A stretch of DNA of 64,000 nucleotides from Bacilli bacterium (lineage in GTDB: Bacteria; Bacillota_I; Bacilli_A; RFN20; DUOF01). Below are positions 1-52,565 of this stretch, in pieces. Position 1 is the stretch's first letter. Every line of letters begins with the position of its first letter. The stretch covers positions 51,583 through 115,582 of the forward strand of contig JBGVRX010000029.1 in the NCBI GenBank assembly GCA_045128835.1, read 5' to 3'. Position numbers and translations under genes: made by a program. The notes beneath the pieces were generated by a model. It searched no databases and had not been told where the DNA came from. It saw only the letters and a program-made list of their open reading frames with translations.

Positions 1-1426
1 AACTTTTTCCATTATTTTTAATCACTAAATAATCTTCTTCAGAAATTTCTTCTTTACTCCATAAATAATAAAGTGAATCAATTCCTGAATAATAATCAGT
101 AAAATTAACCTCTAGATTAACTTGATTATAATAATTTGTATCAATATAACCATCTTTATTTAAACTAAAACTAGGGGCGTTATTATCAAAGTAAAATATG
201 TAATAGTCACTAACATAATAATTTCCCGTATAATCATAAGCATAATATCTCATACAATAAGGACCATCATTTAAATCAGGACCTAAAATAAAACTAACTC
301 CGTTTTCATAAGCAAAATTATAACTTTGACCCCAATCACAAGTATTATAATAAGGAACTATTATTTGATAAAATAAATTACTTGGATCAATACCACTTTT
401 TGAATCATCAACAGTAATCTTTACTTCAACACTTTTAGCGTATTCATCAATTGATGCAACACTTGTATTTTCTTCATCTACAGTTGGTAATTCAGTATCA
501 AAATAAAATATCTCATCTAATAAAACTATACTATCTGGAAATCTACTATTACAATTAGTTTGACATTGCACTACTGTTTTAAATCTAGCGTATTCATAAT
601 TGATGTTATTATTAGAATCATATAACAAAGTATCTGCTGAATAATAAAATGTAAAGTTACCAAGGTAAGGAGTAAGATTTAATGATTGATTTCCAGAACT
701 TACTGTCTCTACGGCTTCATCTCTACAAATATTATCTCCTACACACACACTATTTGTAACCAAAAAAGTCGGGGCGTTATCCCAAGTTAAGCTAGATGAT
801 ATGTTATTAGACATATATCCTTTAACATAAACATATTTATTAGCTTGACTGAAATAATTGTCTACATATTTCTTACCTTCATTTTCAGTATAGAAAGTAT
901 CAACTAAAAATTGATAACTATAATCTAGTTCACTAGAAACAAACTCAATATCATCAAGTATAATTTCTTCATTACATCCATCATCTATACAAACAAGTTT
1001 GTTACTAAATTTAACATATTCAAAATTAAAACCTTCACTATAATAAGGCATATCTCCATCCCAAAATTGAAAGGAATAGGTTTCACTGCTAAGAATATCT
1101 TGAGGATTTTCTTGTTGATCTTTACCAGTTAAATCAGTTTCACAAAGTTCTTCTTGCCCGCTTACTTTGTAACAAAATTTATGCTCCCAACGATAACTTT
1201 TACCTGTTTCTTCTAAACCTTTTAAAGTTACCGCAAATTGCATTCTTTCTTTTATCACACCATAATCATCTTCCAAAGAATAATAAACAGGAAGTTTATC
1301 TGTTCCTACTTCAACTTCAAAAGTAGAACTAGAAACTTTTTTCGCAGAAACATCTATAGATTCCATGAATAAGGCACAAACAAAAACAAAAACAATATAT
1401 ACAAAATTAAATATTTTCTTCATCAT
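1..1426 (-). CDS. Secreted/cell-surface protein of unknown function. Partial: the C-terminus lies beyond the window start.
   Basis: Manual reverse-complement translation gives MMKKIFNFVYIVFVFVCALFMES..., a signal peptide followed by a Cys-containing, Tyr/Asn-rich region. The ATG directly abuts the stop of the upstream gene (sense TAAATGATG), and a GGAGG RBS lies inside the upstream gene's 3' end. Not in the ORF track because it is truncated. Confidence 0.5.
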   Translation of the reverse strand, partial: MMKKIFNFVYIVFVFVCALFMESIDVSAKKVSSSTFEVEVGTDKLPVYYSLEDDYGVIKERMQFAVTLKGLEETGKSYRWEHKFCYKVSGQEELCETDLTGKDQQENPQDILSSETYSFQFWDGDMPYYSEGFNFEYVKFSNKLVCIDDGCNEEIILDDIEFVSSELDYSYQFLVDTFYTENEGKKYVDNYFSQANKYVYVKGYMSNNISSSLTWDNAPTFLVTNSVCVGDNICRDEAVETVSSGNQSLNLTPYLGNFTFYYSADTLLYDSNNNINYEYARFKTVVQCQTNCNSRFPDSIVLLDEIFYFDTELPTVDEENTSVASIDEYAKSVEVKITVDDSKSGIDPSNLFYQIIVPYYNTCDWGQSYNFAYENGVSFILGPDLNDGPYCMRYYAYDYTGNYYVSDYYIFYFDNNAPSFSLNKDGYIDTNYYNQVNLEVNFTDYYSGIDSLYYLWSKEEISEEDYLVIKNNGKS

Positions 1427-2878
1427 TTACGCCTCCACTTCCATAATTAAATTTATTAAAACTAAATATACAATTAACACGCTTATCAAAATAATAAACA
1501 TTGTTTGAGTATATGGTACAACTATCATCAAACAAGGAATTACAAACCAAAACAAAACGCTTAAAACCTTAAACAAGAAGTAATTCTTTAATTTAGTTTT
1601 TTCTTCATTATCCCCTTTTAATAAATAATACATATCATTTTTCTTTATTAAAGCAGATTGACTTTTAAACCCATAATGATAAATATCTTCAACTTTACCA
1701 CCTAATAAATTAAATAACTTACTAGTATTCAATACTTTAACTTTTTCTGTATAAATAACTTCACTATCATTATTAAATTCAACAGAAATAATTAAATTAC
1801 CATTACTACCACCATATTTTCCTTCTTGACCTTTTCCTTCTATTTCCATTTTAGAAGTACATTTAGTAATGTTATGACAGTCAATTGTTTCTTCTAGACT
1901 ACAAACAGTGTAATCACCATTAAAATACACCATTTTATTCTTATAATTTTTGTTTATAAATAAATACATTTGTTTATCTTCACCATCGTATTTACTATTA
2001 AAAAATTTAAAAACAATCTTTTTATTATTAAAATCAAATTGCTTACTATATCCATCTTCAACAAAACAAGGAACCTCAAGTTTAAAAGCACCAAATTCAG
2101 AAAAATATTCTTTACTAAATCCAAATAAGGTTTCTTCTTTAGTTAAGTAATAATCTACTTCAATAACATCACCATTAATTTTAACATTTTCTTTATCATA
2201 AAAATCAAAAGAAACTTTCAAATTAGACTTAAGATTATTTCCATAGTCATCACCATAACCCTTAAATTCTTTAAAAGAATCATCAACGTAAAAAGCGATC
2301 TTATCTTTTGTTAAGTGATATCCTTTTCCTCCACACTTTTTACAATTAACACTTACTTTGCCTTCTCCTCTACAGATTGGGCACCAAATCATATGTTCTT
2401 TATACTCAACTACTTTTTCACCATTACAAGTTTGGCAAGTAACAAAGTCAACACATGAATCACATTTAACCTTATGAGAATATTCTATTTCATAACGCAA
2501 ATTCAAAAGTTTATATAGATAACTTAATTTAACATTAACTTCAATATCTTTATAACTAGAAACGCTCAAATCTTCTACACTGTTATAATCTATTTCTTGA
2601 ATTTCATTAACTTGATTTTCTTTACTAAAATAATCATACAGGTCATATGTTTTTAAAGCATTTTCTTTCAAAGATTCCTTATCTTCCAGATTATACATCT
2701 TTCGTCTTTGTTCATCTTTTATATTCTCATATGCCTTTATAATCTCTCTATATTTTTTATAAGCATGAATAGATGTGTTAAAAGAAGGATCATACTTTCT
2801 TTTTAAGTCATTGTATGATGTTTCAATTTCTTTATCAGTTGCATCTCTAGTAACATTTAAAATCTCATAACTATCCAT
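1427..2878 (-). CDS. Membrane-anchored DnaJ-like protein. It has an N-terminal J-like domain with a degenerate HPD motif, a CR-type zinc finger (CxxCxGxG x4), a DnaJ CTD-like region and two C-terminal TM helices.
   Basis: N-terminus DSYEILNVTRDATDKEIETSYNDLKRKYDPS aligns with the DnaJ J-domain DYYEILGV...KYHPD, but HPD is replaced by DPS. The zinc finger reads CDSC...CQTCNGEK...CPICRGEG...CKKCGGKG. The segment GKGQEGKYGGSNGNLIISVEF resembles the CTD GDLxVxV motif. A hydrophobic C-terminal tail follows. RBS AAGGAGATGA sits upstream. Confidence 0.6.
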   Translation of the reverse strand: MDSYEILNVTRDATDKEIETSYNDLKRKYDPSFNTSIHAYKKYREIIKAYENIKDEQRRKMYNLEDKESLKENALKTYDLYDYFSKENQVNEIQEIDYNSVEDLSVSSYKDIEVNVKLSYLYKLLNLRYEIEYSHKVKCDSCVDFVTCQTCNGEKVVEYKEHMIWCPICRGEGKVSVNCKKCGGKGYHLTKDKIAFYVDDSFKEFKGYGDDYGNNLKSNLKVSFDFYDKENVKINGDVIEVDYYLTKEETLFGFSKEYFSEFGAFKLEVPCFVEDGYSKQFDFNNKKIVFKFFNSKYDGEDKQMYLFINKNYKNKMVYFNGDYTVCSLEETIDCHNITKCTSKMEIEGKGQEGKYGGSNGNLIISVEFNNDSEVIYTEKVKVLNTSKLFNLLGGKVEDIYHYGFKSQSALIKKNDMYYLLKGDNEEKTKLKNYFLFKVLSVLFWFVIPCLMIVVPYTQTMFIILISVLIVYLVLINLIMEVEA

Positions 2879-2896
2879 CTTATATCATCTCCTTGT

Positions 2897-3883
2897 CTAT
2901 AATAAATCTATAACCTCATTGATTAATCTGATATCTTTATACTTATCTCTATTTTTTAACAAGTATTTTTTTATATCACCTTTGTAATCTTTAAGTTTGA
3001 AAGATTCAAAACAACTTCCTTCAACTTCATCAATCACTACTTTTCCCACATTATATCCTTTTGTTTCTCTACCTATTTCTACAAAAGAATACTCACTAAA
3101 CTCTTTAATAATCTCTTCAATATAAATTTTATTTCCCTCAATTGTAAACTTCTTGCTTTCATCTACAACAAGAATATAATCACTATTTACTAAATTATTC
3201 TCTCTTCCATAAAACAAATTAACTTTGAAATTACTACTTAAAAATTCTTTTTTATCTTCACTTAGTTCTCTTGAATCATCTAGTTTTAAAGCATTCTTTT
3301 TTAAATAATCTTTAATATTTTTATTTATATTATTACTATTAACATCCATTTCAAAATAATATGGATTAGCTTCTAAACTAGTATAATTAAGTGCAATATC
3401 GTCATATCTATTAGACAATTCCTTCTTATATTTATTAATCAATTCTAAGAATTTAAAATCATTATTCCAAACAACAACATTGCTACTATTATTAATTTTA
3501 TTTTCACTAACTAATTCATTTTTTAAAGGATTATAAATAACCCTTTTCATTTCCTTTTTTTCTAATACAGGAATCTTATTTATATTCAAGCAATATTCTC
3601 CAAAAGCACTAAACTTAATATCATTAACTATAATTTCATTAATATCCTCACTATCACTATTATTAATGATAAGACCATTATCTAATAAATCATAAAAATT
3701 ATTTTGATAAAGGTACAACAAAGCCTTAGTTACATCCATATCCAATAAGACTTCACTAATAGTCTTTTTGCTTCCTTGTTTTATGATTTTGATTAGTAAA
3801 AACACAAATAAATCCATTTTTTCTAAATTATAAAGTTCAATTTCACTATTAAAATCACTAAAAGAAACAAAATTAATCTTCAT
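2897..3883 (-). CDS. Hypothetical protein, 328 aa, no recognisable motif.
   Basis: Long ORF, Lys/Asn-rich. Its start overlaps the helicase stop by 11 nt, suggesting translational coupling. Confidence 0.4.
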   Translation of the reverse strand: MKINFVSFSDFNSEIELYNLEKMDLFVFLLIKIIKQGSKKTISEVLLDMDVTKALLYLYQNNFYDLLDNGLIINNSDSEDINEIIVNDIKFSAFGEYCLNINKIPVLEKKEMKRVIYNPLKNELVSENKINNSSNVVVWNNDFKFLELINKYKKELSNRYDDIALNYTSLEANPYYFEMDVNSNNINKNIKDYLKKNALKLDDSRELSEDKKEFLSSNFKVNLFYGRENNLVNSDYILVVDESKKFTIEGNKIYIEEIIKEFSEYSFVEIGRETKGYNVGKVVIDEVEGSCFESFKLKDYKGDIKKYLLKNRDKYKDIRLINEVIDLL

Positions 3884-6800
3884 AATTTATCACCTCACCA
3901 AAATAGTTGTTTGGTTCATCAATCTTGCCTACAACTCTATCATAAATCTCACGATATATTTTTCTAACACTTACATCACTACTGTCATCTAATGCTTCCA
4001 TTTTAATTTTAAGACTTGAAAAGAATGGCTTAGATCCAACAATAATTAACATCTTTCTAGCTCTTGATAAGGCAACATTAATTCTTTCAAACTTCTTAAC
4101 AAAATCTCCAGCTTCAAAAAGAGGATTATTTCTAACAAAGTTAACAATAATAATATCTTCTTCTTTACCTTGGAATTCATCTACCGTAGAAACTTTACTC
4201 TTATTAAAATTCAAAGCTTCAAACTTCATTTTAGAAACTTCTTTTTTCAATTCACTAACTTGATCGCCATACAAAGAAATAACTCCAACACTGCACGCTT
4301 CCTTCATACTTCCTTCATCAATCAAAGCTTTATATCCTCTATCTAAAGTTTTTAAAATTTCTTTAGTTAAATAGATTTCTTCCTCATTATAGAAAGATGT
4401 TGAAACGATACTTCCCTTTTTCTTCTTTCTTTCATAACTTACATTACGATTAACATCATAATGAGAATTAAACCAATATGTATGAATGTTTTCTTCAAAC
4501 AAACTATAAGAGTTACTACTTACATTTAAATAGTGCCTCTTTGCCTCATTTTGTTCTTTTAAATTACCAAGTTTTAATTTATCATCATAGAAAATGTTTA
4601 CGACATCCATTATTTGCTCATGGCTTCTGTATTGATTTACTAACATGTATTTATTATTTCTAGATTTTTTGAATAATTCCTTAAACATACTATTTTCTAC
4701 TAAAGATTCATATTTAGAAAGCAATTCTTTATCACTATCGTCTTTAAACATCTTTTCCTTATATTTGAATAAAGGTGGTAATTGACGATGATCTCCTACT
4801 AAAATAATACTCTTTCCATATAAAATAGGAATTAAAAGTTCTACCCCATTAGCCTTACTAACTTCATCTATAATAACTACATCAAAATCTATATTTTTAA
4901 GTTCAATATCTCCTAACCCCAATTTCTTTAGATACTCATTTTTCTCTTCCAAATACTTAGAATTAGCGTTACATGTAATACTGTAAACATTCGCATTATT
5001 ATTTAGTAAATATTTCGTATATTTTACTTTATCCTTCTCTAGTAAATCTTCCTTGTTATCTTCAATGTATTTAATTACATCCTTATATAAAAATTCATAT
5101 TCCTTATATTTACTTTCTTCTTTTTCAAACTTATTCTTTTCTTGATTTATATAAGAATGAATAACATTTAAGCATCCTTCATCATCCAAAGGTCTCTTGT
5201 TAAAAGAAAGAATATTATTAAAATACTCATCAAAATATTCATCAATTTCTCTAAAGTCTTTTTCTCTTCCCTTAGTCTTATTTGCTATTTGATTATTTAA
5301 CTCATTAATCTCTTTTGATAAGGAACTTCTACTTTCTTTGTATTCATTAACCTTTGAACTATAAACATCTAAACTATTCTTTGCTTCATTATAAAAATTA
5401 TCTAAAGTAGAGATATTCTTGTTTATAAATTTCTTATAATCACTTGCAAACTTTTCGTTATTACTAAAATAAATTTTAAAATATTTTAAATAATCATTAA
5501 AATTTTCATACTCTTCATTTATTTCATATTCTTTTACAAATTCTAATCCTCTAAATACTGACGAAGATAAATAACCTTTGTATTCATTTATATCGTAATT
5601 ACTTCTTCTAAATTCATTTATAAATAACAAATTATTCTTGAAATCTCTAATCTTACTAAGAGAAACACTTATTTTATTATCCAATTCGTTTGCTTTGCTT
5701 TTTACAATATTTCTATTATTAATCAAACTTCTAACTTCTTTTCTTAAATTTAAATGTTTAATAACCTTATCTTTAATTTCTTCATATCTTACAAATGATT
5801 GCTCAACTGTTTTACCATATAAAACAAAGTTTTTCTCTTTGTTCAAATACTTATTTTTCATCTTTTCATAAAAATTATCTACAAGTTTATCTGGCAAATA
5901 ACTCTTATTAGATTTTATCTTTCTTTCACTGTTTACTAATCTAATTGGCAAAACATCTAGTTCATCAGGAAGTCTTTCAATAACATTGTCTATTGCAACG
6001 TGTGTTTGAGATGAAAGTAAAACTTTCTTTCCCATTTTATTATATTGGTAAACCATTTCTGTAATAGTTTGAGTCTTACCAGTTCCTGGAGGTCCTTGAA
6101 GTAAAAAGATAGAGTTCGAATTAATCGCACGATAAACAGCTTCTTTTTGATATTTATCCAAAGAATTATTGCTCCATACAATATCCTCTCTTTTTAAAAC
6201 ATCTTCACTAGTCTCAAACTCACTAATATTGAATAAGTAACTAGCAATACCAGGACTCTTAACATTACCTTCTCTTAAATCTCTTAAAGCTTGTTTTCCT
6301 CTTTTATAAAGTGCTACATCACCACTTAAGATATTAACCAAAACAGGCTTTTCTCCAAACTCTCTAGTAACATATTCATTAACTCTAGCAAAACTAAAAT
6401 ATAAATCTAAATCCTCATCACTCCAGAACTTTGAAAAAGAATAAGTTGCTTCCGTTTCACTTTCACTAACTAACTCTAACGGTTTTAACAAACTACCTAG
6501 TCTTCTAGTTTTAAAACTAAATTCTAATTCGTTATTTCCAACCTTAAGTTCTCCTTTTTCCAAACAATCAACTTCATTAGCTAATTCTATTTCTTGAGAA
6601 ACAAAAAATTGCAAATTGTTGAAACTATTCTCATTCTTTTTTATTCTAACTAGAAATTCTACAGCGATTACACTGTTATATGATTCATCAACCATCTCAT
6701 TTCCATCTACATAAAGATAATTATTACCATCATCAAAATAAGTGACATCCTCATACTTTTTACAAATATTTAAGTTTCTTTTAACCTCTTTTAACTCAAT

Positions 6801-7352
6801 TGCCTTAAATTCTAAAGTCTTATAGAATCCTAGTTTCTTTAAAAAATGTCTTTTTTCAAACTCTAAATAACTTTCAAAATCTCTAACAAAATCTAAACAA
6901 TGATAATCATAAACATTTGGAGTCTCATTAATAATATATCTAACAGTTTTAAGATCGCTCAACGCTTTCTTATAATCATTTTTTATTTTTACATCAAAAG
7001 AAAATTCTTTTTCATATTTTCGCATTTTCTTACTATCGTTTATGTAAATATCTTTAACCTTATAATAACTTTCTCCATCCTTAGTTATTATAAAGTCTCC
7101 AACAAATTGATATAGTTGTCCTTTTGGTCTAATAAAAAAATTTTTGTAAAAATCAAAGTTTATATCTTTTAAAAGTCTTCTTTCAAGACTTGAACATGCT
7201 ACAAAAAAAGTATTTTCTAGCACAACTACTTCTTTAACAAAATTATTCAAATCAACATTAATTTCATCTAAGTATTTATAAAATGATGCTCCTGCTAGTC
7301 TCTTCTTATATTCATCTTTATAAACTTCACTAAAATCAAAGAAAATACCCAT
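3873..7352 (-). CDS. Superfamily 1B helicase of the Upf1/DNA2/NAM7-like family (AAA_11/AAA_12 type). It carries an N-terminal domain of about 400 aa of unknown function and a coiled-coil insertion of about 390 aa.
   Basis: Walker A LLQGPPGTGKTQ (nt ~6085-6115). Walker B VVIIDEVSKA. Motif III VGDHRQLPP. Motif IV QYRSHEQI. Motif V TVDEFQGKEEDIIIVNFVRNN. Motif VI INVALSRARKMLIIVGS. A long heptad-like Lys/Glu/Asn-rich insertion lies between Walker A and B. RBS GGAGGTG precedes the ATG. Confidence 0.75.
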   Translation of the reverse strand: MGIFFDFSEVYKDEYKKRLAGASFYKYLDEINVDLNNFVKEVVVLENTFFVACSSLERRLLKDINFDFYKNFFIRPKGQLYQFVGDFIITKDGESYYKVKDIYINDSKKMRKYEKEFSFDVKIKNDYKKALSDLKTVRYIINETPNVYDYHCLDFVRDFESYLEFEKRHFLKKLGFYKTLEFKAIELKEVKRNLNICKKYEDVTYFDDGNNYLYVDGNEMVDESYNSVIAVEFLVRIKKNENSFNNLQFFVSQEIELANEVDCLEKGELKVGNNELEFSFKTRRLGSLLKPLELVSESETEATYSFSKFWSDEDLDLYFSFARVNEYVTREFGEKPVLVNILSGDVALYKRGKQALRDLREGNVKSPGIASYLFNISEFETSEDVLKREDIVWSNNSLDKYQKEAVYRAINSNSIFLLQGPPGTGKTQTITEMVYQYNKMGKKVLLSSQTHVAIDNVIERLPDELDVLPIRLVNSERKIKSNKSYLPDKLVDNFYEKMKNKYLNKEKNFVLYGKTVEQSFVRYEEIKDKVIKHLNLRKEVRSLINNRNIVKSKANELDNKISVSLSKIRDFKNNLLFINEFRRSNYDINEYKGYLSSSVFRGLEFVKEYEINEEYENFNDYLKYFKIYFSNNEKFASDYKKFINKNISTLDNFYNEAKNSLDVYSSKVNEYKESRSSLSKEINELNNQIANKTKGREKDFREIDEYFDEYFNNILSFNKRPLDDEGCLNVIHSYINQEKNKFEKEESKYKEYEFLYKDVIKYIEDNKEDLLEKDKVKYTKYLLNNNANVYSITCNANSKYLEEKNEYLKKLGLGDIELKNIDFDVVIIDEVSKANGVELLIPILYGKSIILVGDHRQLPPLFKYKEKMFKDDSDKELLSKYESLVENSMFKELFKKSRNNKYMLVNQYRSHEQIMDVVNIFYDDKLKLGNLKEQNEAKRHYLNVSSNSYSLFEENIHTYWFNSHYDVNRNVSYERKKKKGSIVSTSFYNEEEIYLTKEILKTLDRGYKALIDEGSMKEACSVGVISLYGDQVSELKKEVSKMKFEALNFNKSKVSTVDEFQGKEEDIIIVNFVRNNPLFEAGDFVKKFERINVALSRARKMLIIVGSKPFFSSLKIKMEALDDSSDVSVRKIYREIYDRVVGKIDEPNNYFGEVINYED

Positions 7353-7364
7353 CTATAACACCTC

Positions 7365-8714
7365 CTATCTTATAACTTTAACTATAACTTTATTTCCATC
7401 TTCATCTACTACAACGATTTCCTTCTTTTTGTTTAAAGTGACTTTTAAACCACTCTCAAACAAGTTAACTTCTTCAAAAAAGAACTTTTTATAATCTTGC
7501 AAATAAATAACTTTATCTTTTTTACTAACACGAACAGTAACCTTATATACATCATAGTTAAAAGGATTTAATTTAAAAACTGCGCTCTCACATTCATTTT
7601 TATCAAGCATGAATCCTTGTTCTTTAACTTCTACTTCTTTTTCTTCTTCTATATTTTTGGGAAATGACAATGTCAATTTACTCTTATTAAACTCAATTGT
7701 CTTCTTACCATCACTAACTTCATATTTAGTTAATTTAATAGGCATTGAATATAAAACATCATCAATACATTTAAAATCTTCTTCAAAGTAAATTTTTAAG
7801 TATAAGTCTCCTTGCTCTCCACCAAACTTACCATCTAACCCTTTTCCTTTTAGTTTAACAATTTTAAAATTGTTCGCTTCTTCTATTTCTATATACTGAT
7901 AATCTTTATTATTTATTTGTTTATAATAAGAAATGTTTAAACATTTTAAATTACTAGATAACTCTTTTTTATTAATATAAAATCCTGGCATATCTTTCTT
8001 TATAACGACATTTTTATAAACGTCTTTACCCTTTAAAGGAACTAGTTCACTCTCTATACAAATATAAAATGAGCCTTCGTTAATCCCTTGATTTTCAAGC
8101 TTAATTACTTCTCTAGTTTCTTCTCCGCTCGATTTTATTTTTTCAAAACCTTTTATAGTCTCTACATTTTTACTTATTCCTTTTATAATTTCTTCTTTAG
8201 AAAACTTTATTATTCTTTTGTCATAAACATCATTACCAACTACTTCAAAACATTCATAATCATTTATTTGAACTTTGATAAACAAATCACCTTTAATATC
8301 ATTACTTTCTCTTCCTTTTCCTTTTACAGTAATAATATCTCCTTCTTTTAAAGTTGGAGTTAATTGAACTTTAACTTTACCTTTTTTTACTAATTTACCT
8401 TTTCCTTCACATAAAGGACAAATGTTTTTAATAATTCTTTTATTCCCCTTACAGTGATTGCAAATCACTTTATTACCATTAATATTAATAAAACCTAACC
8501 CATTACATTTATCACACTTTTCGTAATATGTATTAAAATTAACACTCTCTACACATTTACAATCTTTTTCTACTTTACTTATAACTTCAACTTCTTTTCC
8601 TTTTAAAATATCCAAATATGAAAAAGAACCTTCATCATAAATATCTAGATTCTCTTTAACATTTAAATTATTCTCATAATTATAATTATCTACAAAAATA
8701 TTATTCTTTTTCAT
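7365..8714 (-). CDS. DnaJ-like substrate-binding module protein with a CR-type zinc finger and two DnaJ CTD-like repeats. It lacks a J domain.
   Basis: Zinc finger CKCVESV...CDKCNGLG...CNHCKGNK...CPLCEGKG. CTD-like motifs KGKGRESNDIKGDLFIKVQIND and GKGLDGKFGGEQGDLYLKIYFEED. No J-domain at the N-terminus. The start overlaps the coaE stop (ATGA). Confidence 0.55.
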   Translation of the reverse strand: MKKNNIFVDNYNYENNLNVKENLDIYDEGSFSYLDILKGKEVEVISKVEKDCKCVESVNFNTYYEKCDKCNGLGFININGNKVICNHCKGNKRIIKNICPLCEGKGKLVKKGKVKVQLTPTLKEGDIITVKGKGRESNDIKGDLFIKVQINDYECFEVVGNDVYDKRIIKFSKEEIIKGISKNVETIKGFEKIKSSGEETREVIKLENQGINEGSFYICIESELVPLKGKDVYKNVVIKKDMPGFYINKKELSSNLKCLNISYYKQINNKDYQYIEIEEANNFKIVKLKGKGLDGKFGGEQGDLYLKIYFEEDFKCIDDVLYSMPIKLTKYEVSDGKKTIEFNKSKLTLSFPKNIEEEKEVEVKEQGFMLDKNECESAVFKLNPFNYDVYKVTVRVSKKDKVIYLQDYKKFFFEEVNLFESGLKVTLNKKKEIVVVDEDGNKVIVKVIR

Positions 8715-9277
8715 TTTAATTCTCCTAGCAATTTTATTATAAAACTATCATCAATATTTTGCCCATCTATTATAAAATCCATTTCTTCCCTGTTATAATC
8801 ATTTTTCATAACTTCTCTTAAATCAAAATATTCATTAGTGATATTATCTCTTTTTATAACTCTATTCTTTCTTGTTTCATATTTAGTGTCTACTAAAATC
8901 TTATAGTCTAGTAAATTCCAATATTTTGTTTGATCTAAAATAATCCAATCTAAAAACACCTTTTTATCTTTGTTTTCTTTTATTATTCTATCTATAATTT
9001 CATTTTCTATTTTTTCTGTATAATCGTAATATTTTTGATATTTAACCTTATCATTAAAAACAATATTCCCTACTTTTTTTCTATCTAAAACTCCATTAAC
9101 TACAACTGAATTATCTTCTACTATTTTTACTATGTTCTCTACTATCTCTTTATCTTTTAAAATATCATGCCCGATTTTATCAATTTCAACATGAATTATA
9201 CCATCATCAAAAGACATCATTCTCCTAATTAAAGATGACTTTCCTGCTCCTGATTTTCCAACAACACCTATAAGCAT
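8711..9277 (-). CDS. coaE: Dephospho-CoA kinase.
   Basis: N-terminal P-loop MLIGVVGKSGAGKSS. Length of 188 aa and collinear similarity to CoaE (IGLTGGIASGKST...VIDAD...LDRKKLG...). A TATAAT-like -10 and GGAG RBS lie upstream. Confidence 0.7.
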   Translation of the reverse strand: MLIGVVGKSGAGKSSLIRRMMSFDDGIIHVEIDKIGHDILKDKEIVENIVKIVEDNSVVVNGVLDRKKVGNIVFNDKVKYQKYYDYTEKIENEIIDRIIKENKDKKVFLDWIILDQTKYWNLLDYKILVDTKYETRKNRVIKRDNITNEYFDLREVMKNDYNREEMDFIIDGQNIDDSFIIKLLGELK

Positions 9278-9308
9278 AATATCACTCCAAAATTATTATA
9301 CTATTAAT

Positions 9309-9334
9309 AAAAAAAAGAAGGAATAATTCCCTCT
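9309..9334 (-). terminator. Putative rho-independent terminator separating the upstream 248-aa gene from the coaE operon.
   Basis: Hairpin AGAAGG-AATAATT-CCCTCT (minus-strand RNA AGAGGG...CCUUCU) followed by a U-tract (A-run on the plus strand at 9309-9315). Confidence 0.4.
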
Positions 9335-9364
9335 TTTAAAGTGTACACAAGTAAAATATATACC

Positions 9365-10111
9365 CTATTTTTTACCTATATTTACTAGTATATATTCAAG
9401 ATAATTTAAAATTTGTTCTTTATCTTTTCTATCTGATGATTTTACTAGATTAGAATAATCATTTAATTCGTCAAAAGAAAGATTTTCATAGTGACTAGAT
9501 ATATATGCTTCTAACGTCTCTATACTTATTTTATCAGGCGCTAAATTATTTAATACAATCACATCTTTCTTTATTTCACTGCTACACTTTAAATAAAAAT
9601 TAGGATCATTTTTAATAAAGGCGCATTGAACTAAATTAGAACAATTGCATAATAATTCTATATCCTTTTTAGCAAGTTCGTATTGAACCTCTTCAGATGC
9701 ATATTCAAGATAAAATTTATTTTTAAAAACTACTTTATTTTGATTTTTTAAAGAAATCAAAGATAATTTTGATGGGTTATCAAAAGCAAATTTCACTTGA
9801 GCATCATCACTAGCGTATTTAACTTTATTATTGTTCTTTTCAATAATTTGAACTTGCAAATCTTCACTTAAAAGATGAAAATTCTCATTATTAACTATTT
9901 GCACTTGAATTTTATAACTTAAAAATTTAATAACCTCTGGTTCTAAATCAGCTAATTCTTTAACAACATTTAGATCTAATAATTCTAACTTTTTTCCCAA
10001 CTCATTTAAAATTAATTCATTATATTTTAGCTCACCAGAAAAAGTTTTCCACTCATCAATAGTAAATCCTTTTTTTAATTTTTTCAATGCAACTTTTTCT
10101 GTTTTTTTCAT
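9365..10111 (-). CDS. Hypothetical protein, 248 aa.
   Basis: Long ORF with no recognisable motif. Internal repeat IQVQIVNNENFHLLSEDLQVQIIEKNN. Lies 26 nt downstream of the 665-aa gene. Confidence 0.35.
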   Translation of the reverse strand: MKKTEKVALKKLKKGFTIDEWKTFSGELKYNELILNELGKKLELLDLNVVKELADLEPEVIKFLSYKIQVQIVNNENFHLLSEDLQVQIIEKNNNKVKYASDDAQVKFAFDNPSKLSLISLKNQNKVVFKNKFYLEYASEEVQYELAKKDIELLCNCSNLVQCAFIKNDPNFYLKCSSEIKKDVIVLNNLAPDKISIETLEAYISSHYENLSFDELNDYSNLVKSSDRKDKEQILNYLEYILVNIGKK

Positions 10112-10137
10112 AATTATTCCTACCTTTATAATGGCTA

Positions 10138-12135
10138 TTATCTTTTGCCTATAACATCTTTATCTGTCGCTAAACTTTCGCTAGAAACTTTCACATCACT
10201 TTCACTTACTTCACTTTGTAATAAATGCTCATTATTTTTCATTGCCAGCTTCATTCTATTTCTCTTTGCAAGTACTGTATATTGTTGCTTCTTTACAACC
10301 ACTATAGGCATCTTCCACCCTTTAGGCTTTAAACCGTTTTCAACACAATACTTAGTAAATGCTTCTGCAGCTTTTGCTTGAACATCACCAATCTCATCAC
10401 TACACAAAATGGCACTTGGAATGGTTTTACCACCAAATTCTTTGCTGTCCTCAAAATCAAATCTATCAATATCAACTTCGTTATAATTGCCCAAAGCTGT
10501 GTTTTTAATTAATTTATCAGCTACCATAAACCTTGCGCTATCACTAACTTCCACATCACTAACTCTAGCTTCCTTTGAACTGTTGATATCAGAAGGACTC
10601 ATAACAAGAATTTTTGCCTTATCAAACAAATAAGTTACTTGGACATCATCACATCCAAACAATTTATTATATTTATTAAATTCTAAATTATTTAAGCAAT
10701 CTTGATTTGTATATGAGCAACAAATGTGTGATGCTCCATTTTCGTATTCAAACCAAGAAGATGCAAAATCTCCTACAACACTATTTCCTGATAACCCTTT
10801 AACAAAATTTGTGGTAGATAAGAACGAGAAATCTGCTCCATCAAAAACATACACCGGAGAGTTAATAGCGGTTCCCTCTATTGTTTTTGGACTTTTAGCT
10901 ACATAAATTCCCTCTTCTAATCCATTGGCTCTTTTTTCAATTGACTCTACAGTCGATATTGTCTTCATCATGTTATTTTCAAATGCCAATGGCAATTTAT
11001 CAACAATATTTAAATAGTTTCCTTCAACAGTATTTCCTCTTTTTTCAAGGTATTCTGCATATTGCAAAAGTTTATAATAGTCTTCTTTAGAAGTAACACC
11101 TTCTGCAAAATCCAATATTTTAATTAGTCCTTTAATACCTTCAATTTCTTCACTTGTAAAAATAGAAGCAACATTATCTTCGTTATTCACAATAGATTCC
11201 ATATCAAAATATTCCTTCATAATTTGAGGTTTATTTTGAGACAAATAATAGGCCCACTTTCTATGTCCCAACATATCTAATGCATAATAGTTTCTAAAAA
11301 TAGCATCTGCTAAAAGGTTGGCAGCCTCTTTGCTGTCTCCTTGTTTCAATGCAACTTCTGCTTTCGTCTTTGCTAGTAAATACACCTTATTTTTGTTTTC
11401 GAAGAAATTATTTAGACCTTTAACGCTATGTACATTATATGGATTATCTATATCCTTAAATATTTCTATTAAAGAACTTTTTTGAACATCTGTAATTTTT
11501 TTATTATTTTTTCTTAAATCTCTAATAAGTGGTTGATATTCCTTAAATTCTCTAACCATTTTTTCAAAATTCACTCTAGAAAAATCTATATTTTTCTCAT
11601 AAAAATGATATAAATATTTAAAATCAGCCATTTTTTCCTTGTCAGTTAAAATGTCTTTAACAAGAATTAAAGAATGTGGTTTCAAATTTAAATTAAGTAT
11701 TTTATTAACAAAATCTTCACTTAAATTATCGAATACCTCTTGATGTAACACATGAATTTCACTAGCATTAAAAACATTAATATTCTTTCTTTGTTTTAAA
11801 ATTTTTACGGCTGATTTTCCAAAATGATTTCCTACAATTTTTAAAAAGGTTTGATGAGTTTTACTATTAATTTGCTCATCATTCATATAATTAAACGCAT
11901 TGGAAACATTACCATTATACTTATTATTTTCCACGCCAAAAATTCCTTTTTCTACATCCTCATTAATAGCGTCTATCAATTTATTTATTTCTTTTTTAGG
12001 AACGGAAGAAATTATTGATCTTTCAAAAAAATTAGCCACTAAAGGGCGTATTCTTTTGTCTTTTATTTTCAATAAATAGTAATTTAATCCAGGGTAATTC
12101 GCATTACTAAAATCAAAAACATTGTTTTTGCTCAT
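10138..12135 (-). CDS. Hypothetical protein, 665 aa.
   Basis: Long ORF with no recognisable catalytic motif. Its C-terminal half contains a Cys/aromatic-rich segment (GASHICCSYTNQDC...GCDD). Confidence 0.4.
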   Translation of the reverse strand: MSKNNVFDFSNANYPGLNYYLLKIKDKRIRPLVANFFERSIISSVPKKEINKLIDAINEDVEKGIFGVENNKYNGNVSNAFNYMNDEQINSKTHQTFLKIVGNHFGKSAVKILKQRKNINVFNASEIHVLHQEVFDNLSEDFVNKILNLNLKPHSLILVKDILTDKEKMADFKYLYHFYEKNIDFSRVNFEKMVREFKEYQPLIRDLRKNNKKITDVQKSSLIEIFKDIDNPYNVHSVKGLNNFFENKNKVYLLAKTKAEVALKQGDSKEAANLLADAIFRNYYALDMLGHRKWAYYLSQNKPQIMKEYFDMESIVNNEDNVASIFTSEEIEGIKGLIKILDFAEGVTSKEDYYKLLQYAEYLEKRGNTVEGNYLNIVDKLPLAFENNMMKTISTVESIEKRANGLEEGIYVAKSPKTIEGTAINSPVYVFDGADFSFLSTTNFVKGLSGNSVVGDFASSWFEYENGASHICCSYTNQDCLNNLEFNKYNKLFGCDDVQVTYLFDKAKILVMSPSDINSSKEARVSDVEVSDSARFMVADKLIKNTALGNYNEVDIDRFDFEDSKEFGGKTIPSAILCSDEIGDVQAKAAEAFTKYCVENGLKPKGWKMPIVVVKKQQYTVLAKRNRMKLAMKNNEHLLQSEVSESDVKVSSESLATDKDVIGKR

Positions 12136-21854: not shown

Positions 21855-23012
21855 CTATTTCTCTTCTCTTTTAAAATATTCATTTATTTTTTCTGCTTTG
21901 TCTAATCTTTCATACGGTAAATCCATATTTTCTTTACCAAAATGTCCGCCTCTAGCAAGTTCTCTATAATTTAAGTTAAGTAAATCAAGTGACTTAATTA
22001 TATTACCCGGCTTAAAATTAAAGACTTTTTTAATCATATTACATAATTCCAAGTCACTTACTTTGCCAGTCCCATAAGTGAACACATTAAATGATACCGG
22101 TTCTGCTAATCCTATCGCATAACCAACTTGCACTTCACACTCTTTAGCGTATCCACTTGCTACTATATTTTTTGCTACATATCGAGCATAATAAGCAGCA
22201 CTCCTATCAACTTTAGTAGGATCTTTACCACTAAATGCTCCTCCACCATGTCTTCCTCTACCACCATATGTATCAACAATTATTTTTCTTCCTGTAAGTC
22301 CAAAGTCTCCTCTAGGACCTCCAATAACAAATCTTCCTGATGGATTAACAATTAATCTATAATTATCTTTAATTAAGTCATATTCTTTAAGAACTTCTTC
22401 AACAATGTCTTCTTTAATATATTTTCTAAAAGATTCTTCATCAAAATCATCACTATGTTGTATAGAAACTAAAACTGTATCAACTCTGTTTTTGTCCCCA
22501 TATTCAATACTAACTTGAGATTTCATGTCTGGTCTAGCATATTTAAATTCACCAGATTTTCTTTTTTCTGTTGCTTTTAATAATATTTTATTAGCAATCT
22601 CTAATGTTAGAGGCATATAATTTTTAGTTTCATCACACGCATAACCAAAAATAATCCCTTGATCTCCTGCCCCAATTTCTTCTTTATTTACAGCATTAAA
22701 AATATCACTAGATTGTTCTTTAATTAAAATTTCATACTCTGCATTCTCGCTATCAAAACCATCATCATAACTATTATAACCAATCTCTTTTAAAACATTT
22801 TTAGCAACACTAGCATAATCAACGCTGCCCTTCATTGTAATTTCTCCACCAATTACAACTTTTCTTTCTCCAATCATAACTTCACATGCAACATGCGCAT
22901 TTTTGTCTTGTCTTAAACATTCAGTTAAAATTGCATCACTAATTTGATCGCAAACCTTATCTGGATGCCCCTCACTAACTGCTTCAGACGTAAAAATTTT
23001 ACCTTTTTCCAT
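21855..23012 (-). CDS. metK: S-adenosylmethionine synthetase.
   Basis: [27 protein letters not shown]...[19 protein letters not shown] motifs. The start is trimmed to MEKGK, which has an AGAGGGA RBS. Confidence 0.9.
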   Translation of the reverse strand: [385 protein letters not shown]

Positions 23013-23032
23013 AATTCTTTCCCTCTTTCTAG

Positions 23033-23179
23033 AAAAATAAAACTCCCTTATTAAAAGGAAGTTCACTTCTAGTATAACTCCCTCTTATTGTTCATATCTC
23101 TATGCTTGGGTTAGCACCTTAAATTTTAGGTTGCTCTTACGTTTAACGGTCCCTATACCTACGTAAATCTTAATAAGAG
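23033..23179 (-). promoter_or_regulatory. SAM-I (S-box) riboswitch with a terminator expression platform, upstream of metK.
   Basis: Minus-strand RNA CUCUUAU...UAGGGACCG...GCAACC...AAGGUGCUAA...AUAAGAG, containing the P1 helix, AGGGA box, GCAACC and GGUGCUAA elements. Followed by hairpin ACUUCCUU-UUAAU-AAGGGAGU and UUUAUUUUU. Confidence 0.7.
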
Positions 23180-52372: not shown

Positions 52373-52565
52373 CTCCTCTTTCTTATTGTTTTATAATAAG
52401 CGTAATTACCTTTTCAATAAAAAACCCCTAAACCAAATTTTGGCGCAGGGGAAATAAATCAAGTTTATTTTCACCTCGGCAACCTTATTAAGTCCCTTGA
52501 CCGTTGCTGTCTTTGGTAATTAAGCATCATTATTTTAATAGTTTAATATGTATTTGTCAACTAAA
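52373..52565 (-). promoter_or_regulatory. Ribosomal protein L10 leader (autoregulatory attenuator) upstream of rplJ.
   Basis: An untranslated stretch of about 190 nt. Contains the hairpin CCCCUGCGCCAAAAUUUGGUUUAGGGG followed by UUUUUUAUU in minus RNA (plus strand ~52419-52452). Confidence 0.5.

What the first reader, a model, noticed from the sequence alone, without database searches (positions are those of the whole stretch)
1427..2878. Membrane-anchored pseudo-J protein with HPD replaced by DPS, plus CR zinc finger and CTD
The first 65 residues align collinearly with the DnaJ J-domain (YEIL.V...EI...Y..L..KY-DP-). The catalytic His-Pro-Asp tripeptide reads Asp-Pro-Ser. That predicts loss of Hsp70 ATPase stimulation while the helical scaffold is kept. 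It is followed by a complete CxxCxGxG x4 zinc finger and a CTD-like beta region (GNLIISVEF resembles the GDLxVxV motif), and it ends in two TM helices. The topology is the reverse of E. coli DjlA. A client-binding DnaJ scaffold tethered to the membrane and encoded beside a helicase is unusual.
Basis: seen in the sequence. Interest (0 to 1): 0.7.

Follow-up and report, generated by a model that had tools for sequence, protein, structure and literature searches.

The report
Membrane-anchored DnaJ look-alike lacking HPD
A gut bacterium encodes a membrane-tethered copy of the chaperone helper DnaJ that has lost the three residues needed to switch on Hsp70 yet keeps that altered domain strongly conserved. 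The gene always sits in a five-gene cluster built around an RNA/DNA helicase, which suggests a chaperone part reused as a scaffold.

Summary
ORF 1427-2878 (minus strand, 483 aa) has a genuine N-terminal J-domain (Pfam PF00226, 45.4 bits, E=9e-12). Its His-Pro-Asp reads Asp-Pro-Ser in an ungapped alignment to solved J-domains.

After the J-domain come:
- an acidic linker with no G/F region;
- a zinc-finger region with four Cys pairs, of which only two are full CxxCxGxG;
- a class-A DnaJ-type beta core (Foldseek E=7e-13 to DnaJA2, Ydj1 and bacterial DnaJ);
- a C-terminal two-helix membrane hairpin.

The change is family-wide. None of 51 relatives has HPD or HPE, against 127 of 133 canonical DnaJ hits. 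Helix II basic residues are charge-reversed (R27 becomes Asp in 22 of 22). The J-like domain is still the most conserved part of the protein (76% against about 50% identity).

The family is tiny: about ten 50%-identity clusters among 1.84 billion representatives, all found so far in uncultured gut Bacilli.

The gene always lies in one cassette: a J-less DnaJ paralog, a Upf1/MkoA-like helicase, a winged-helix protein, this protein, and a type-I surface Ig-like protein. The cassette occurs in at least three genomic contexts, with no Hsp70 nearby.

Best reading: a repurposed, probably Hsp70-independent membrane scaffold for a helicase complex. The mechanism is inferred, not shown. It is a new variant of the type IV (pseudo) J-domain protein kind.

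The parts
1427..2878 (-). Gene for the 483-aa HPD-less (type IV) J-domain protein with class-A DnaJ core and C-terminal membrane hairpin
   Evidence: ORF. Pfam and NCBIfam hits. AF2 model. Foldseek results. 44 close homologs.
2690..2878 (-). J-like domain (aa 1-63)
   Evidence: PF00226, 45.4 bits, E=8.8e-12, profile positions 1-63 of 63. PDB J-domains down to E=7e-9. Most conserved region of the protein, 76% mean pairwise identity.
2783..2791 (-). Asp30-Pro31-Ser32 at the position of His-Pro-Asp
   Evidence: Ungapped alignment to 4j7z. Translates to DPS. The family column is D/N, P, variable.
2555..2689 (-). Acidic linker (aa 64-108) that replaces the G/F-rich region; predicted disordered; contains the conserved YxLYD[FY] and IDY motifs
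   Evidence: pLDDT below 50 over residues 64-94 and 102-108. Y78, L80, D82, D97 and Y98 are at least 90% conserved. 35% mean identity.
2321..2464 (-). Cysteine-rich zinc-finger region (aa 139-186), four Cys pairs
   Evidence: Translation. C148, C151, C166 and C169 are invariant; C139, C142, C179 and C182 are at least 90% conserved. Distant members lose motifs 1 and 4 together.
1589..2554 (-). DnaJ-type beta core (aa 109-430): CTD I carrying the zinc-finger insertion, an expanded CTD II that ends in GKG..GNLIISVEF, and an extra beta region
   Evidence: Foldseek to 7zhs, 6jzb, 1nlt and 4j80 at E<=1e-10. hhalign to the J-less paralog over 268 columns.
1430..1588 (-). C-terminal two-helix membrane hairpin (aa 431-483) with conserved W444, P448, P455, Y456, Y471, N476, E480
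   Evidence: Hydropathy scan. AF2 helices 434-453 and 458-480. Hydrophobic tail in 47 of 47 full-length members. Conserved residues.
2897..3883 (-). 328-aa cassette protein with an N-terminal winged-helix domain; the rest has no known fold match
3873..7352 (-). 1159-aa Upf1-like SF1 helicase (MkoA-like)
   Evidence: AAA_11 and AAA_12. PADLOC MkoA E=4e-103. PDB matches to IGHMBP2, DNA2, Sen1 and Upf1. Helicase motifs are invariant.
7365..8714 (-). 449-aa J-less DnaJ paralog (zinc finger plus CTDs, no J-domain, no membrane segment)
   Evidence: PF01556 E=1.2e-20. hhalign to the J-like family gives probability 98.8%, E=1.2e-16.
1..1426 (-). 5' part of the downstream gene: signal-peptide surface protein. 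Full-length orthologs (776-922 aa) have an Ig-like domain and a C-terminal membrane anchor. The gene starts directly after the J-like stop codon.
   Evidence: Translation. Orthologs.
8711..9277 (-). Dephospho-CoA kinase gene. It overlaps the J-less gene by 4 nt here, but it is not part of the cassette in other contexts.
   Evidence: TIGR00152, 68.1 bits against a cutoff of 65.55. Absent next to the cassette in L010, L011 and L015.
9313..9337 (-). Terminator-like hairpin upstream of the transcription unit

Best explanation
Shown.
- The gene encodes a bona fide J-domain protein of class-A DnaJ ancestry.
- In the whole family the HPD tripeptide is replaced by (D/N)-P-x, and the basic helix II face is charge-reversed.
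- The G/F region is replaced by an acidic linker.
- The dimerisation tail is replaced by a two-helix membrane hairpin. This places the whole DnaJ-like body in the cytoplasm at the membrane.
- The gene is one of two DnaJ-derived paralogs flanking a Upf1/MkoA-like helicase in a conserved five-gene cassette. The order is: J-less DnaJ paralog, helicase, winged-helix protein, J-like membrane protein, type-I surface Ig-like protein.

Inferred.
- The protein no longer works as an Hsp70 ATPase activator.
- Its J-like domain has been repurposed as a protein-protein interaction module. The strictly conserved (D/N)PxFNTS loop argues for this.
- Its DnaJ-type beta core and zinc finger act as a holding or docking scaffold.
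- Together with the soluble paralog, it assembles or retains the helicase/winged-helix complex at the inner face of the membrane.
- Its hairpin probably packs against the single membrane helix of the co-translated surface protein.
- In short, it is a structural adaptor that couples a cytoplasmic nucleic-acid helicase to a membrane or surface component. This is analogous to how HPD-less DNAJB13 is a structural part of radial spokes and Pam16 a structural part of the import motor.
For: - J-domain and the DPS substitution.
- Family-wide loss of HPD, with control: 0 of 51 family members against 127 of 133 canonical hits.
- Charge reversal in helix II: R22->E/D/Q, K26->E/N/M/L, R27->D in 22 of 22.
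- The J-like domain is the most conserved region: 76% against 46-55% elsewhere, and 50% against about 30% when compared with distant members. P31, N34 and S36 are invariant.
- Class-A DnaJ fold of the core.
- Paralogy with the J-less neighbour.
- Membrane hairpin in 47 of 47 full-length members, with conserved polar and proline residues.
- The cassette keeps the same order in the window and in L001, L002, L004, L007, L010, L011 and L015. This covers at least three different flanking contexts and J-like identities down to about 30%.
- Genes are tightly packed or overlapping, with no internal terminator.
- No DnaK and no HPD-bearing J-domain lie in any cassette locus. The unrelated dnaK-dnaJ locus L005 served as a positive control.
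- One natural fusion of the winged-helix protein with the J-like protein exists (P0230).
- Literature: H->Q or D->N in HPD abolishes Hsp70 stimulation, and type IV JDPs such as Pam16 and DNAJB13 act in structural or regulatory roles (PMC13254874).
Against: - No interaction has been tested. No multimer prediction was available.
- The house-keeping DnaK of these genomes could not be examined, so a non-canonical DnaK contact is not excluded.
- A designed J-domain analogue without HPD can stimulate Hsc70 (cited in PMC13254874).
- The fusion protein P0230 is a single sequence on one 3.5-kb contig and could be an assembly or gene-calling artefact.
- The biological role of the cassette is unknown.
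- Adjacency to the surface protein could reflect only co-expression.
Confidence: 0.5

Rival explanations
1. The cassette is an anti-phage or anti-mobile-element defence module related to Mokosh. The Upf1/MkoA-like helicase is the ATP-driven core. The two DnaJ-derived proteins are sensors that bind phage or misfolded proteins at the membrane. The surface protein marks the site of phage contact. This concerns the biological role and is compatible with the scaffold mechanism.
For: - The helicase's best defence-profile match is MkoA, E=4e-103.
- The nearest non-cassette helicases lie beside a PLD-domain protein in a defence-island-like context with AAA_21/RloB and PDDEXK_4.
- An AAA_21 plus ~190-aa gene pair follows the cassette in L002, L004 and L010.
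- A phage integrase lies within 8 kb of the cassette's end in L015.
- The cassette appears in three genomic contexts.
- Cassette GC is 0.24-0.26 against 0.28-0.35 elsewhere in the window.
- Host DnaJ is known to mediate phage sensing by bNACHT25 (PMC12169576).
Against: - No PLD or other recognisable nuclease or effector is present in the cassette.
- No PADLOC hit for the J-like, J-less or winged-helix proteins.
- The cassette sits at the same chromosomal position across genomes with 47-100% J-like identity.
- It is present in all 5 same-species contigs that extend past coaE. This looks vertical rather than patchy.
- It is absent from the phage and plasmid collections.
Confidence: 0.25
2. The protein is a dedicated assembly or folding factor for the downstream type-I surface protein. 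This would resemble the role of the J-domain protein TopJ in presenting adhesins in Mycoplasma. The helicase would be functionally separate.
For: - The surface-protein gene starts directly after the J-like stop codon.
- It follows the J-like gene in every locus that extends that far, including the most distant ones, L007 and L015.
- Both products are membrane-anchored.
- The DnaJ CTD fold is a client-binding fold.
Against: - The DnaJ-like body is cytoplasmic, whereas nearly all of the surface protein is extracellular.
- Without HPD there is no evident way to drive Hsp70.
- The helicase, winged-helix protein and J-less paralog are just as strictly linked.
- The TopJ model matches only the J-domain: 41 bits against a cutoff of 300.
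Confidence: 0.15
3. The protein is still an Hsp70 partner. The altered J-domain would bind house-keeping DnaK, or a divergent Hsp70, in a non-canonical way. It could recruit or sequester DnaK at the membrane, or compete with DnaJ.
For: - The J fold and many core J-domain residues are retained: Y4, L7, Y22, L25, Y29, P31, N34, K42, Y43, R44, Y50, Y62.
- The review PMC13254874 raises exactly this possibility for type IV JDPs. It also notes that HPE works with HscC and that a designed HPD-less analogue is active.
Against: - His33 and Asp35 are both replaced.
- Position 32 is variable (S/K/F/D/N/H/E).
- Helix II basic residues are charge-reversed.
- There is no G/F region.
- No Hsp70 gene lies within 10 kb in any cassette locus.
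Confidence: 0.08
4. It is a decaying duplicate of dnaJ with no function of its own.
For: Loss of HPD and of the G/F region. Zinc-finger and CTD profile scores are below threshold.
Against: - The reading frame is intact and the length constant (about 480 aa) in more than 40 clusters spanning 30-100% identity.
- The J-like domain is the best-conserved part.
- The altered loop itself is nearly invariant.
- The operon partners are conserved.
Confidence: 0.02

Closest known systems
Class A (type I) J-domain proteins: bacterial DnaJ, yeast Ydj1, human DNAJA2
   Same: N-terminal J-domain. Zinc-finger region inserted in CTD I. Two beta-sandwich CTDs, each ending in a G-x-G...G(D/N)L motif. These are the best fold matches, and TIGR02349 aligns residues 2-276.
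   Different: No HPD and no G/F-rich region. Only two full CxxCxGxG motifs. CTD II is expanded by about 70 residues. The dimerisation tail is replaced by a membrane hairpin. The TIGR02349 score is 100 bits against a cutoff of 377. It is not in an hrcA-grpE-dnaK-dnaJ operon, and no CIRCE element is present in the window.
Type IV / pseudo J-domain proteins (Pam16/Tim16, DNAJB13/RSP16, Plasmodium type IV JDPs)
   Same: Recognisable J-domain with a non-conservative replacement of HPD. The known examples serve as structural or regulatory subunits of larger machines (PMC13254874). DNAJB13/RSP16 chains are among the fold hits.
   Different: The known examples named in that review are of class B or class C architecture, and all are eukaryotic (PMC13254874). 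This one is bacterial, has class-A architecture with a zinc finger, is membrane-anchored, and is paired with a J-less paralog rather than with a functional J-domain partner such as Pam18.
Membrane-anchored bacterial JDPs: E. coli DjlA (N-terminal anchor) and DjlB/DjlC (partners of HscC)
   Same: A J-domain protein tethered to the cytoplasmic membrane. The layout of J-domain at the N-terminus and anchor at the C-terminus matches DjlB/DjlC; that topology is from my own knowledge. Their HPE motif and HscC partnership are from PMC13254874 and PMC10410713.
   Different: DjlA has HPD and DjlB/DjlC have HPE, and they work with DnaK or HscC. None has the zinc-finger/CTD core. No Hsp70 gene is linked here.
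Mokosh defence system (MkoA Upf1-like helicase plus PLD nuclease)
   Same: The neighbouring helicase matches the MkoA profile at E=4e-103 and belongs to the Upf1-like family that defines Mokosh (bioRxiv 10.1101/2022.05.11.491447).
   Different: The cassette has no PLD nuclease and no kinase domain. DnaJ-derived, winged-helix and surface proteins are not part of Mokosh.
J-domain/helicase pairings: polyomavirus large T antigen; DnaJ/DnaK acting on the lambda P-DnaB helicase complex
   Same: A J-type module is functionally linked to a helicase. The T-antigen J-domain is covered in PMC13254874; the lambda case is my own knowledge.
   Different: Those use a functional HPD J-domain to recruit Hsp70. 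Here the J-domain lacks HPD and the helicase is SF1 Upf1-like, not SF3 or DnaB-type.

Membership tests
J-domain protein superfamily (Pfam PF00226) | About 63-residue helical J-domain recognised by the family profile above the curated threshold | tested here: met
   45.4 bits against a gathering score of 27.8, E=8.8e-12, profile positions 1-63 of 63. AF2 model shows helices at 3-6, 15-28 and 37-62. Foldseek TM-score normalised to target length is 0.5-0.8 against isolated J-domains.
Functional (Hsp70-activating) J-domain | His-Pro-Asp (or HPE) in the loop between helices II and III | tested here: not met
   Asp-Pro-Ser at residues 30-32. 0 of 51 family members have HPD or HPE anywhere.
Functional (Hsp70-activating) J-domain | Basic helix II face (E. 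coli DnaJ R22, K26, R27) that docks on DnaK | tested here: not met
   The equivalent columns read E/D/Q, E/N/M/L(/K once), and D in 22 of 22. The mapping used the E. coli DnaJ sequence recalled from memory and the alignment frame.
Functional (Hsp70-activating) J-domain | Stimulation of Hsp70 ATPase in vitro | not testable with these tools
   Needs a biochemical assay.
Class A (type I) JDP / DnaJ equivalog (TIGR02349) | Whole-protein score above the curated cutoff | tested here: not met
   100.4 bits against a cutoff of 377.2.
Class A (type I) JDP / DnaJ equivalog (TIGR02349) | G/F-rich region after the J-domain | tested here: not met
   The linker (residues 64-108) is acidic, has no Gly/Phe enrichment, and is predicted disordered.
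Class A (type I) JDP / DnaJ equivalog (TIGR02349) | Zinc-finger-like region with four CxxCxGxG repeats forming two zinc centres | tested here: inconclusive
   Four conserved Cys pairs are present, but only two are full CxxCxGxG. PF00684 scores 14.1 bits against 32.7. The fold matches class A zinc-finger/CTD structures. Distant members lose motifs 1 and 4 together. Metal binding was not testable.
Class A (type I) JDP / DnaJ equivalog (TIGR02349) | Two C-terminal beta-sandwich domains (CTD I and II) | tested here: met
   Foldseek to 7zhs, 6jzb, 1nlt and 4j80 at E=7e-13 to 1e-10. CTD II is expanded.
Class A (type I) JDP / DnaJ equivalog (TIGR02349) | C-terminal dimerisation domain | tested here: not met
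   The C-terminus is a two-helix hydrophobic hairpin.
Type IV (pseudo) JDP | Clearly recognisable J-domain with a non-conservative replacement of HPD (definition in PMC13254874) | tested here: met
Mokosh defence system | Upf1-like (COG1112) helicase together with a PLD-family nuclease (bioRxiv 10.1101/2022.05.11.491447) | tested here: not met
   The helicase is present. No PLD hit in any cassette protein in Pfam, PADLOC or NCBIfam.
Mycoplasma TopJ (NF037946 / TIGR03835) | Whole-protein score above the curated cutoff | tested here: not met
   41.2 bits against 300 and 26.5 bits against 512. Only the J-domain aligns.
DjlA/DjlB/DjlC-type membrane JDPs | Membrane anchor plus a functional HPD/HPE J-domain, with a partner Hsp70 (DnaK or HscC) | tested here: not met
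   An anchor is present. No HPD or HPE. No Hsp70 gene in the window or in the cassette loci.

The most novel reading that the evidence does not exclude
The five-gene cassette is a previously undescribed membrane-coupled immune or surveillance system. A surface Ig-like protein and a tail-anchored HPD-less DnaJ derivative would report events at the envelope, for example phage contact or DNA entry, to a Upf1/MkoA-like helicase. DnaJ-type client-binding domains would be used as Hsp70-independent sensors or adaptors. This would be the first bacterial case of a J-domain positively selected for a non-Hsp70 function.
Probability: 0.2. Interest if true: 0.85.

Novelty: new variant of a known kind. Interest (0 to 1): 0.6.

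Why it matters
HPD-less ('type IV') J-domain proteins are an acknowledged open problem. A 2026 review states that it is unknown whether such deviations are accidents of evolution or are selected (PMC13254874). The largest census of J-domain proteins discarded sequences without a full HPD (PMC10410713).

This family is a clean bacterial test case for three reasons:
- The altered J-domain is the most strongly conserved part of the protein.
- The new loop sequence is itself nearly invariant.
- The DnaK-docking face is charge-reversed.

These points argue for selection of a new function rather than decay. The fixed genetic partners (a J-less paralog, a Upf1-like helicase, a winged-helix protein and a surface protein) name concrete candidates for what that function is.

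If the scaffold idea is right, it shows how a chaperone co-factor was converted into a membrane adaptor for a nucleic-acid helicase. If the defence reading is right, it adds a new architecture to the Upf1/Mokosh-like branch of prokaryotic immunity.

Tried and rejected
- CIRCE heat-shock operator search in the window: 0 matches with up to 3 mismatches. There is no sign of HrcA control.
- tblastn with E. coli DnaK against the window and all fetched loci: the only hit is in the unrelated locus L005.
- PADLOC: nothing for the J-like, J-less or winged-helix proteins.
- Phage and plasmid collections: only canonical dnaJ genes matched the J-like protein. Nothing matched the winged-helix protein or the C-terminal half of the J-like protein. 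The cassette is therefore not evidently phage- or plasmid-borne.
- Within-species presence/absence test using the exact CoaE protein: all five contigs that extend downstream carry the cassette. No evidence for accessory status.
- Considered and rejected: Mokosh membership (no PLD), TopJ membership (score far below cutoff), and a coaE functional link (coaE is not adjacent in L010, L011 or L015).
- I looked for a PD-(D/E)xK-like motif among the invariant residues of the helicase N-terminal 390 aa and found nothing convincing.
- The promoter scan is uninformative in this AT-rich DNA: 85 sites found against 85 expected.
- I could not determine whether these genomes also encode canonical dnaK/dnaJ/grpE.
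Full report
**1. What is in the sequence**

The finding's coordinates match an ATG-initiated ORF of 483 codons at 1427..2878 on the minus strand.

- Pfam's J-domain model aligns end to end: residues 2-63 to profile positions 1-63 of 63. The score is 45.4 bits against a gathering score of 27.8, E=8.8e-12.
- phmmer against all PDB chains returns 41 J-domain chains and nothing else. The best is T. thermophilus DnaJ2 (4j7z) at E=7e-9.
- That alignment has no gaps across the loop. 'RQYHPDVNKS' pairs with 'RKYDPSFNTS', so His-Pro-Asp is Asp30-Pro31-Ser32. Window 2783-2791(-) translates to DPS.
- The protein contains no HPD anywhere.

**2. The rest of the protein**

An AlphaFold2 model built on 22 family members has mean pLDDT 78.9. 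It shows:

| Residues | Feature |
|---|---|
| 3-62 | J helices |
| 64-108 | Disordered linker |
| 112-421 | Confidently modelled beta region (pLDDT mostly 85-91) |
| 434-453, 458-480 | Two C-terminal helices |

- Foldseek against the PDB puts class A DnaJ proteins first: DNAJA2 7zhs 7e-13, S. pneumoniae DnaJ 6jzb 1e-12, Ydj1 1nlt 4e-11, T. thermophilus DnaJ 4j80 1e-10. Class B CTDs follow, including the radial-spoke proteins DNAJB13/RSP16.
- The CTD assignment is real even though the sequence-only Pfam hit is weak (E=0.028).
- The cysteine-rich region (window 2321-2464) has four Cys pairs. Only CPICRGEG and CKKCGGKG are full CxxCxGxG motifs, so '4 complete repeats' is an overstatement.
- In the family, C148, C151, C166 and C169 are invariant. 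C139, C142, C179 and C182 are at least 90% conserved.
- Distant members lack motifs 1 and 4 together. This is what one expects if, as in DnaJ, motifs 1+4 and 2+3 form the two zinc centres. The DnaJ arrangement is my own knowledge.
- The linker is acidic and is not G/F-rich.
- The only hydrophobic stretch is residues 432-483. There is no signal peptide, and the body is zinc-binding. The body must therefore be cytoplasmic, with the hairpin acting as a tail anchor joined by a 5-residue outer loop.

**3. Is the HPD loss an accident?**

A search of 5.8 billion proteins found 44 family members of about 480 aa (47-99% identity) plus two at 30-32%.

An exhaustive HMMER profile search of 1.84 billion 50%-identity representatives found only 17 proteins at E<=1e-30. 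That is roughly ten full-length clusters plus fragments. Below them the list drops to ordinary DnaJ proteins, which match only positions 2-280.

- None of 51 family sequences contains HPD or HPE. 127 of 133 ordinary DnaJ-type hits in the same list do.
- The tripeptide reads DPS (26 sequences), DPK, NPS, DPD, DPN, NPE, DPA, DPV and others, and once SEE.
- At the family level His33 is always D/N (rarely E or S), Pro is kept, and position 35 is free.
- The flanking 'FNTS' is almost invariant: N34 and S36 in 22 of 22, F33 and T35 in at least 19 of 22.
- The helix II residues that correspond to E. coli DnaJ R22, K26 and R27 are E/D/Q, E/N/M/L, and Asp in 22 of 22.
- The J-like domain is nevertheless the most conserved segment. 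Mean pairwise identity is 76%, against 46-55% for all other structured parts and 35% for the linker. Against the two distant members it is 50% versus 16-37% for the other regions.

This is the signature of a repurposed domain, not a decaying one.

**4. Genomic setting**

On the minus strand, after a terminator-like hairpin at 9337-9313, six genes are packed with overlaps or gaps of 0-18 nt:

| Window coordinates | Product |
|---|---|
| 8711-9277 | Dephospho-CoA kinase |
| 7365-8714 | 449-aa protein with a DnaJ zinc finger and CTDs (PF01556, E=1e-20) but no J-domain |
| 3873-7352 | 1159-aa SF1 helicase |
| 2897-3883 | 328-aa protein of unknown family |
| 1427-2878 | The J-like protein |
| 1426 downward | A signal-peptide protein that runs off the window |

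- hhalign shows that the J-less and J-like families are paralogs over 268 columns, including the unusual expansion between the two G-x-G...G(D/N)L motifs (probability 98.8%, E=1e-16).
- The helicase is Upf1-like. It has AAA_11/AAA_12 domains, and its PDB matches are IGHMBP2, DNA2, Sen1 and Upf1. All helicase motifs are invariant. Its best defence-profile match is Mokosh MkoA (E=4e-103).
- Full-length orthologs of the last gene are 776-922 aa. They have a signal peptide, a membrane-proximal Bact_surface_Ig-like domain, one C-terminal membrane helix and a short basic tail. They are type-I surface proteins.

**5. The cassette is the conserved unit**

The order J-less DnaJ / helicase / winged-helix protein / J-like / surface protein recurs in:

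- four uncultured gut 'Bacilli bacterium' MAGs, three with full flanks and the same glp-side context (L001, L002, L004);
- L010, which has a similar context but no coaE;
- two quite different contexts, L011 (efp, AP endonuclease) and L015 (miaA, thiF...);
- partially, the short contig L007, whose J-like protein is only 32% identical.

Their J-like proteins read NPE, DPV, DPA and NPS.

- coaE is not part of the unit.
- No Hsp70 gene and no HPD-bearing J-domain occurs in any of these loci. The unrelated dnaK-dnaJ locus L005 was detected as a positive control.
- One database protein (P0230) is an end-to-end fusion of a winged-helix-protein homolog (31% identity, E=3e-21) with a J-like protein. 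It rests on a single 3.5-kb contig.
- Helicases just outside the family lack DnaJ-like neighbours. At least one family of them sits beside a PLD-domain protein in a defence-island-like setting.

**6. How it most likely works**

Shown:
- class-A DnaJ ancestry;
- loss of HPD, of the basic helix II face, of the G/F region and of the dimerisation tail;
- gain of a membrane hairpin;
- strict linkage to four partner genes.

Established knowledge: HPD is indispensable for Hsp70 ATPase stimulation, and even H->Q or D->N abolishes it. HPD-less 'type IV' JDPs such as Pam16 and DNAJB13 act as structural or regulatory subunits (PMC13254874).

Inference:
- The protein is an Hsp70-independent, membrane-tethered scaffold.
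- Its J-like domain is a dedicated interaction module.
- Its DnaJ core, together with the soluble paralog, holds the helicase/winged-helix complex at the membrane, next to the surface protein.
- The surface protein's single membrane helix may pack against the hairpin. The conserved W444, P448, P455, Y456, Y471, N476 and E480 suggest more than a passive anchor.

I put about 0.5 on this mechanism.

The biological purpose of the cassette is open. A Mokosh-related defence role is attractive (about 0.2-0.25) but has three weaknesses: no identifiable effector, no PADLOC support for the non-helicase parts, and a distribution that looks vertical. A role as an assembly factor for the surface protein (about 0.15) and a residual, non-canonical DnaK contact (about 0.08) are not excluded. 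A dead paralog is effectively excluded.

**7. Comparison with what is known**

- The protein works like, and meets the definition of, a type IV (pseudo) JDP.
- It is not a DnaJ equivalog: TIGR02349 scores 100 bits against 377, and there is no HPD, G/F region or dimerisation domain.
- It is not TopJ (41 bits against 300).
- It is not a DjlA/DjlB/DjlC-type functional membrane JDP.
- The cassette is not Mokosh, because there is no PLD.
- The type IV examples named in the review PMC13254874 are eukaryotic and of class B or C architecture. The large JDP census removed HPD-less sequences (PMC10410713).
- I found no paper describing this family or cassette in four relevant full-text searches. This is absence of evidence in a limited library.

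**8. Verdict**

It is a new variant of a known kind: a bacterial, class-A-derived, tail-anchored pseudo-JDP within a conserved helicase cassette. Interest is about 0.6. It is a well-defined natural experiment on what an HPD-less J-domain is for, with named candidate partners. It comes, however, from uncultured organisms, and its function is so far only inferred.

Noticed in passing
window 9365-12135 (-): Two genes (248 aa and 665 aa) with no Pfam or NCBIfam match lie between GtrA and coaE. They are absent at this position in L002 and L004. The 665-aa product has a weak PADLOC hit to Cas5_IIId (E=4.9e-6). In a same-species contig (L018) it is split into 255 + 403 aa.
   Followed up: partly
window 23082-23179 (-) and 52410-52534 (-): A SAM riboswitch (52.8 bits) lies upstream of the 403-aa gene at 21855-23066. 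A ribosomal L10 leader (72.6 bits) lies in the rplJ/rplL-rpoB-rpoC region. Both score above Rfam gathering thresholds.
   Followed up: no
P0230 (Logan contig, 3476 bp; not in the window): A 789-aa protein is an end-to-end fusion of a homolog of the 328-aa winged-helix protein with a J-like protein (NPK at the HPD position). It is either a Rosetta-stone hint of physical interaction or a gene-calling/assembly artefact. It is a singleton cluster.
   Followed up: partly
L011 14554-16098: In this cassette copy the J-like gene is interrupted by a TAA stop right after the J-like domain. This yields an 84-aa J-like-only ORF and a 409-aa remainder. Contig coverage is about 3.5x, so it may be a sequencing error.
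   Followed up: partly
L012/L013 (JGI MIS contigs) and L014 (Spiroplasma sp. SV19 CP045455.1): The nearest non-cassette relatives of the helicase lie next to a PLDc_2 870-aa protein, a 1097-aa Ppx-GppA (ASKHA) protein, and an AAA_2/AAA_5 ATPase plus radical-SAM pair. The same ATPase plus radical-SAM pair recurs near the helicase in Spiroplasma. This may be another uncharacterised helicase-centred module.
   Followed up: no
L002 13977-15747; L004 15634-17410; L010 15594-17346: An AAA_21 ATPase (~400 aa) overlapping a ~190-aa gene, then an M48 peptidase, follow the cassette in three genomes. The AAA_21 plus small-partner pair resembles OLD/RloB-type defence pairs.
   Followed up: no
window 1-10000 compared with 10001-64000: The cassette region has GC 0.24-0.26 against 0.28-0.35 in the rest of the window. 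GC skew is strongly negative wherever genes are on the minus strand and turns positive at 58-62 kb, where genes switch to the plus strand.
   Followed up: no
window 2555-2689 (-), aa 64-108: The otherwise poorly conserved, disordered linker contains two conserved short motifs: Y78-x-L80-x-D82 (YxLYD[FY]) and I-D97-Y98. These could be docking motifs.
   Followed up: no
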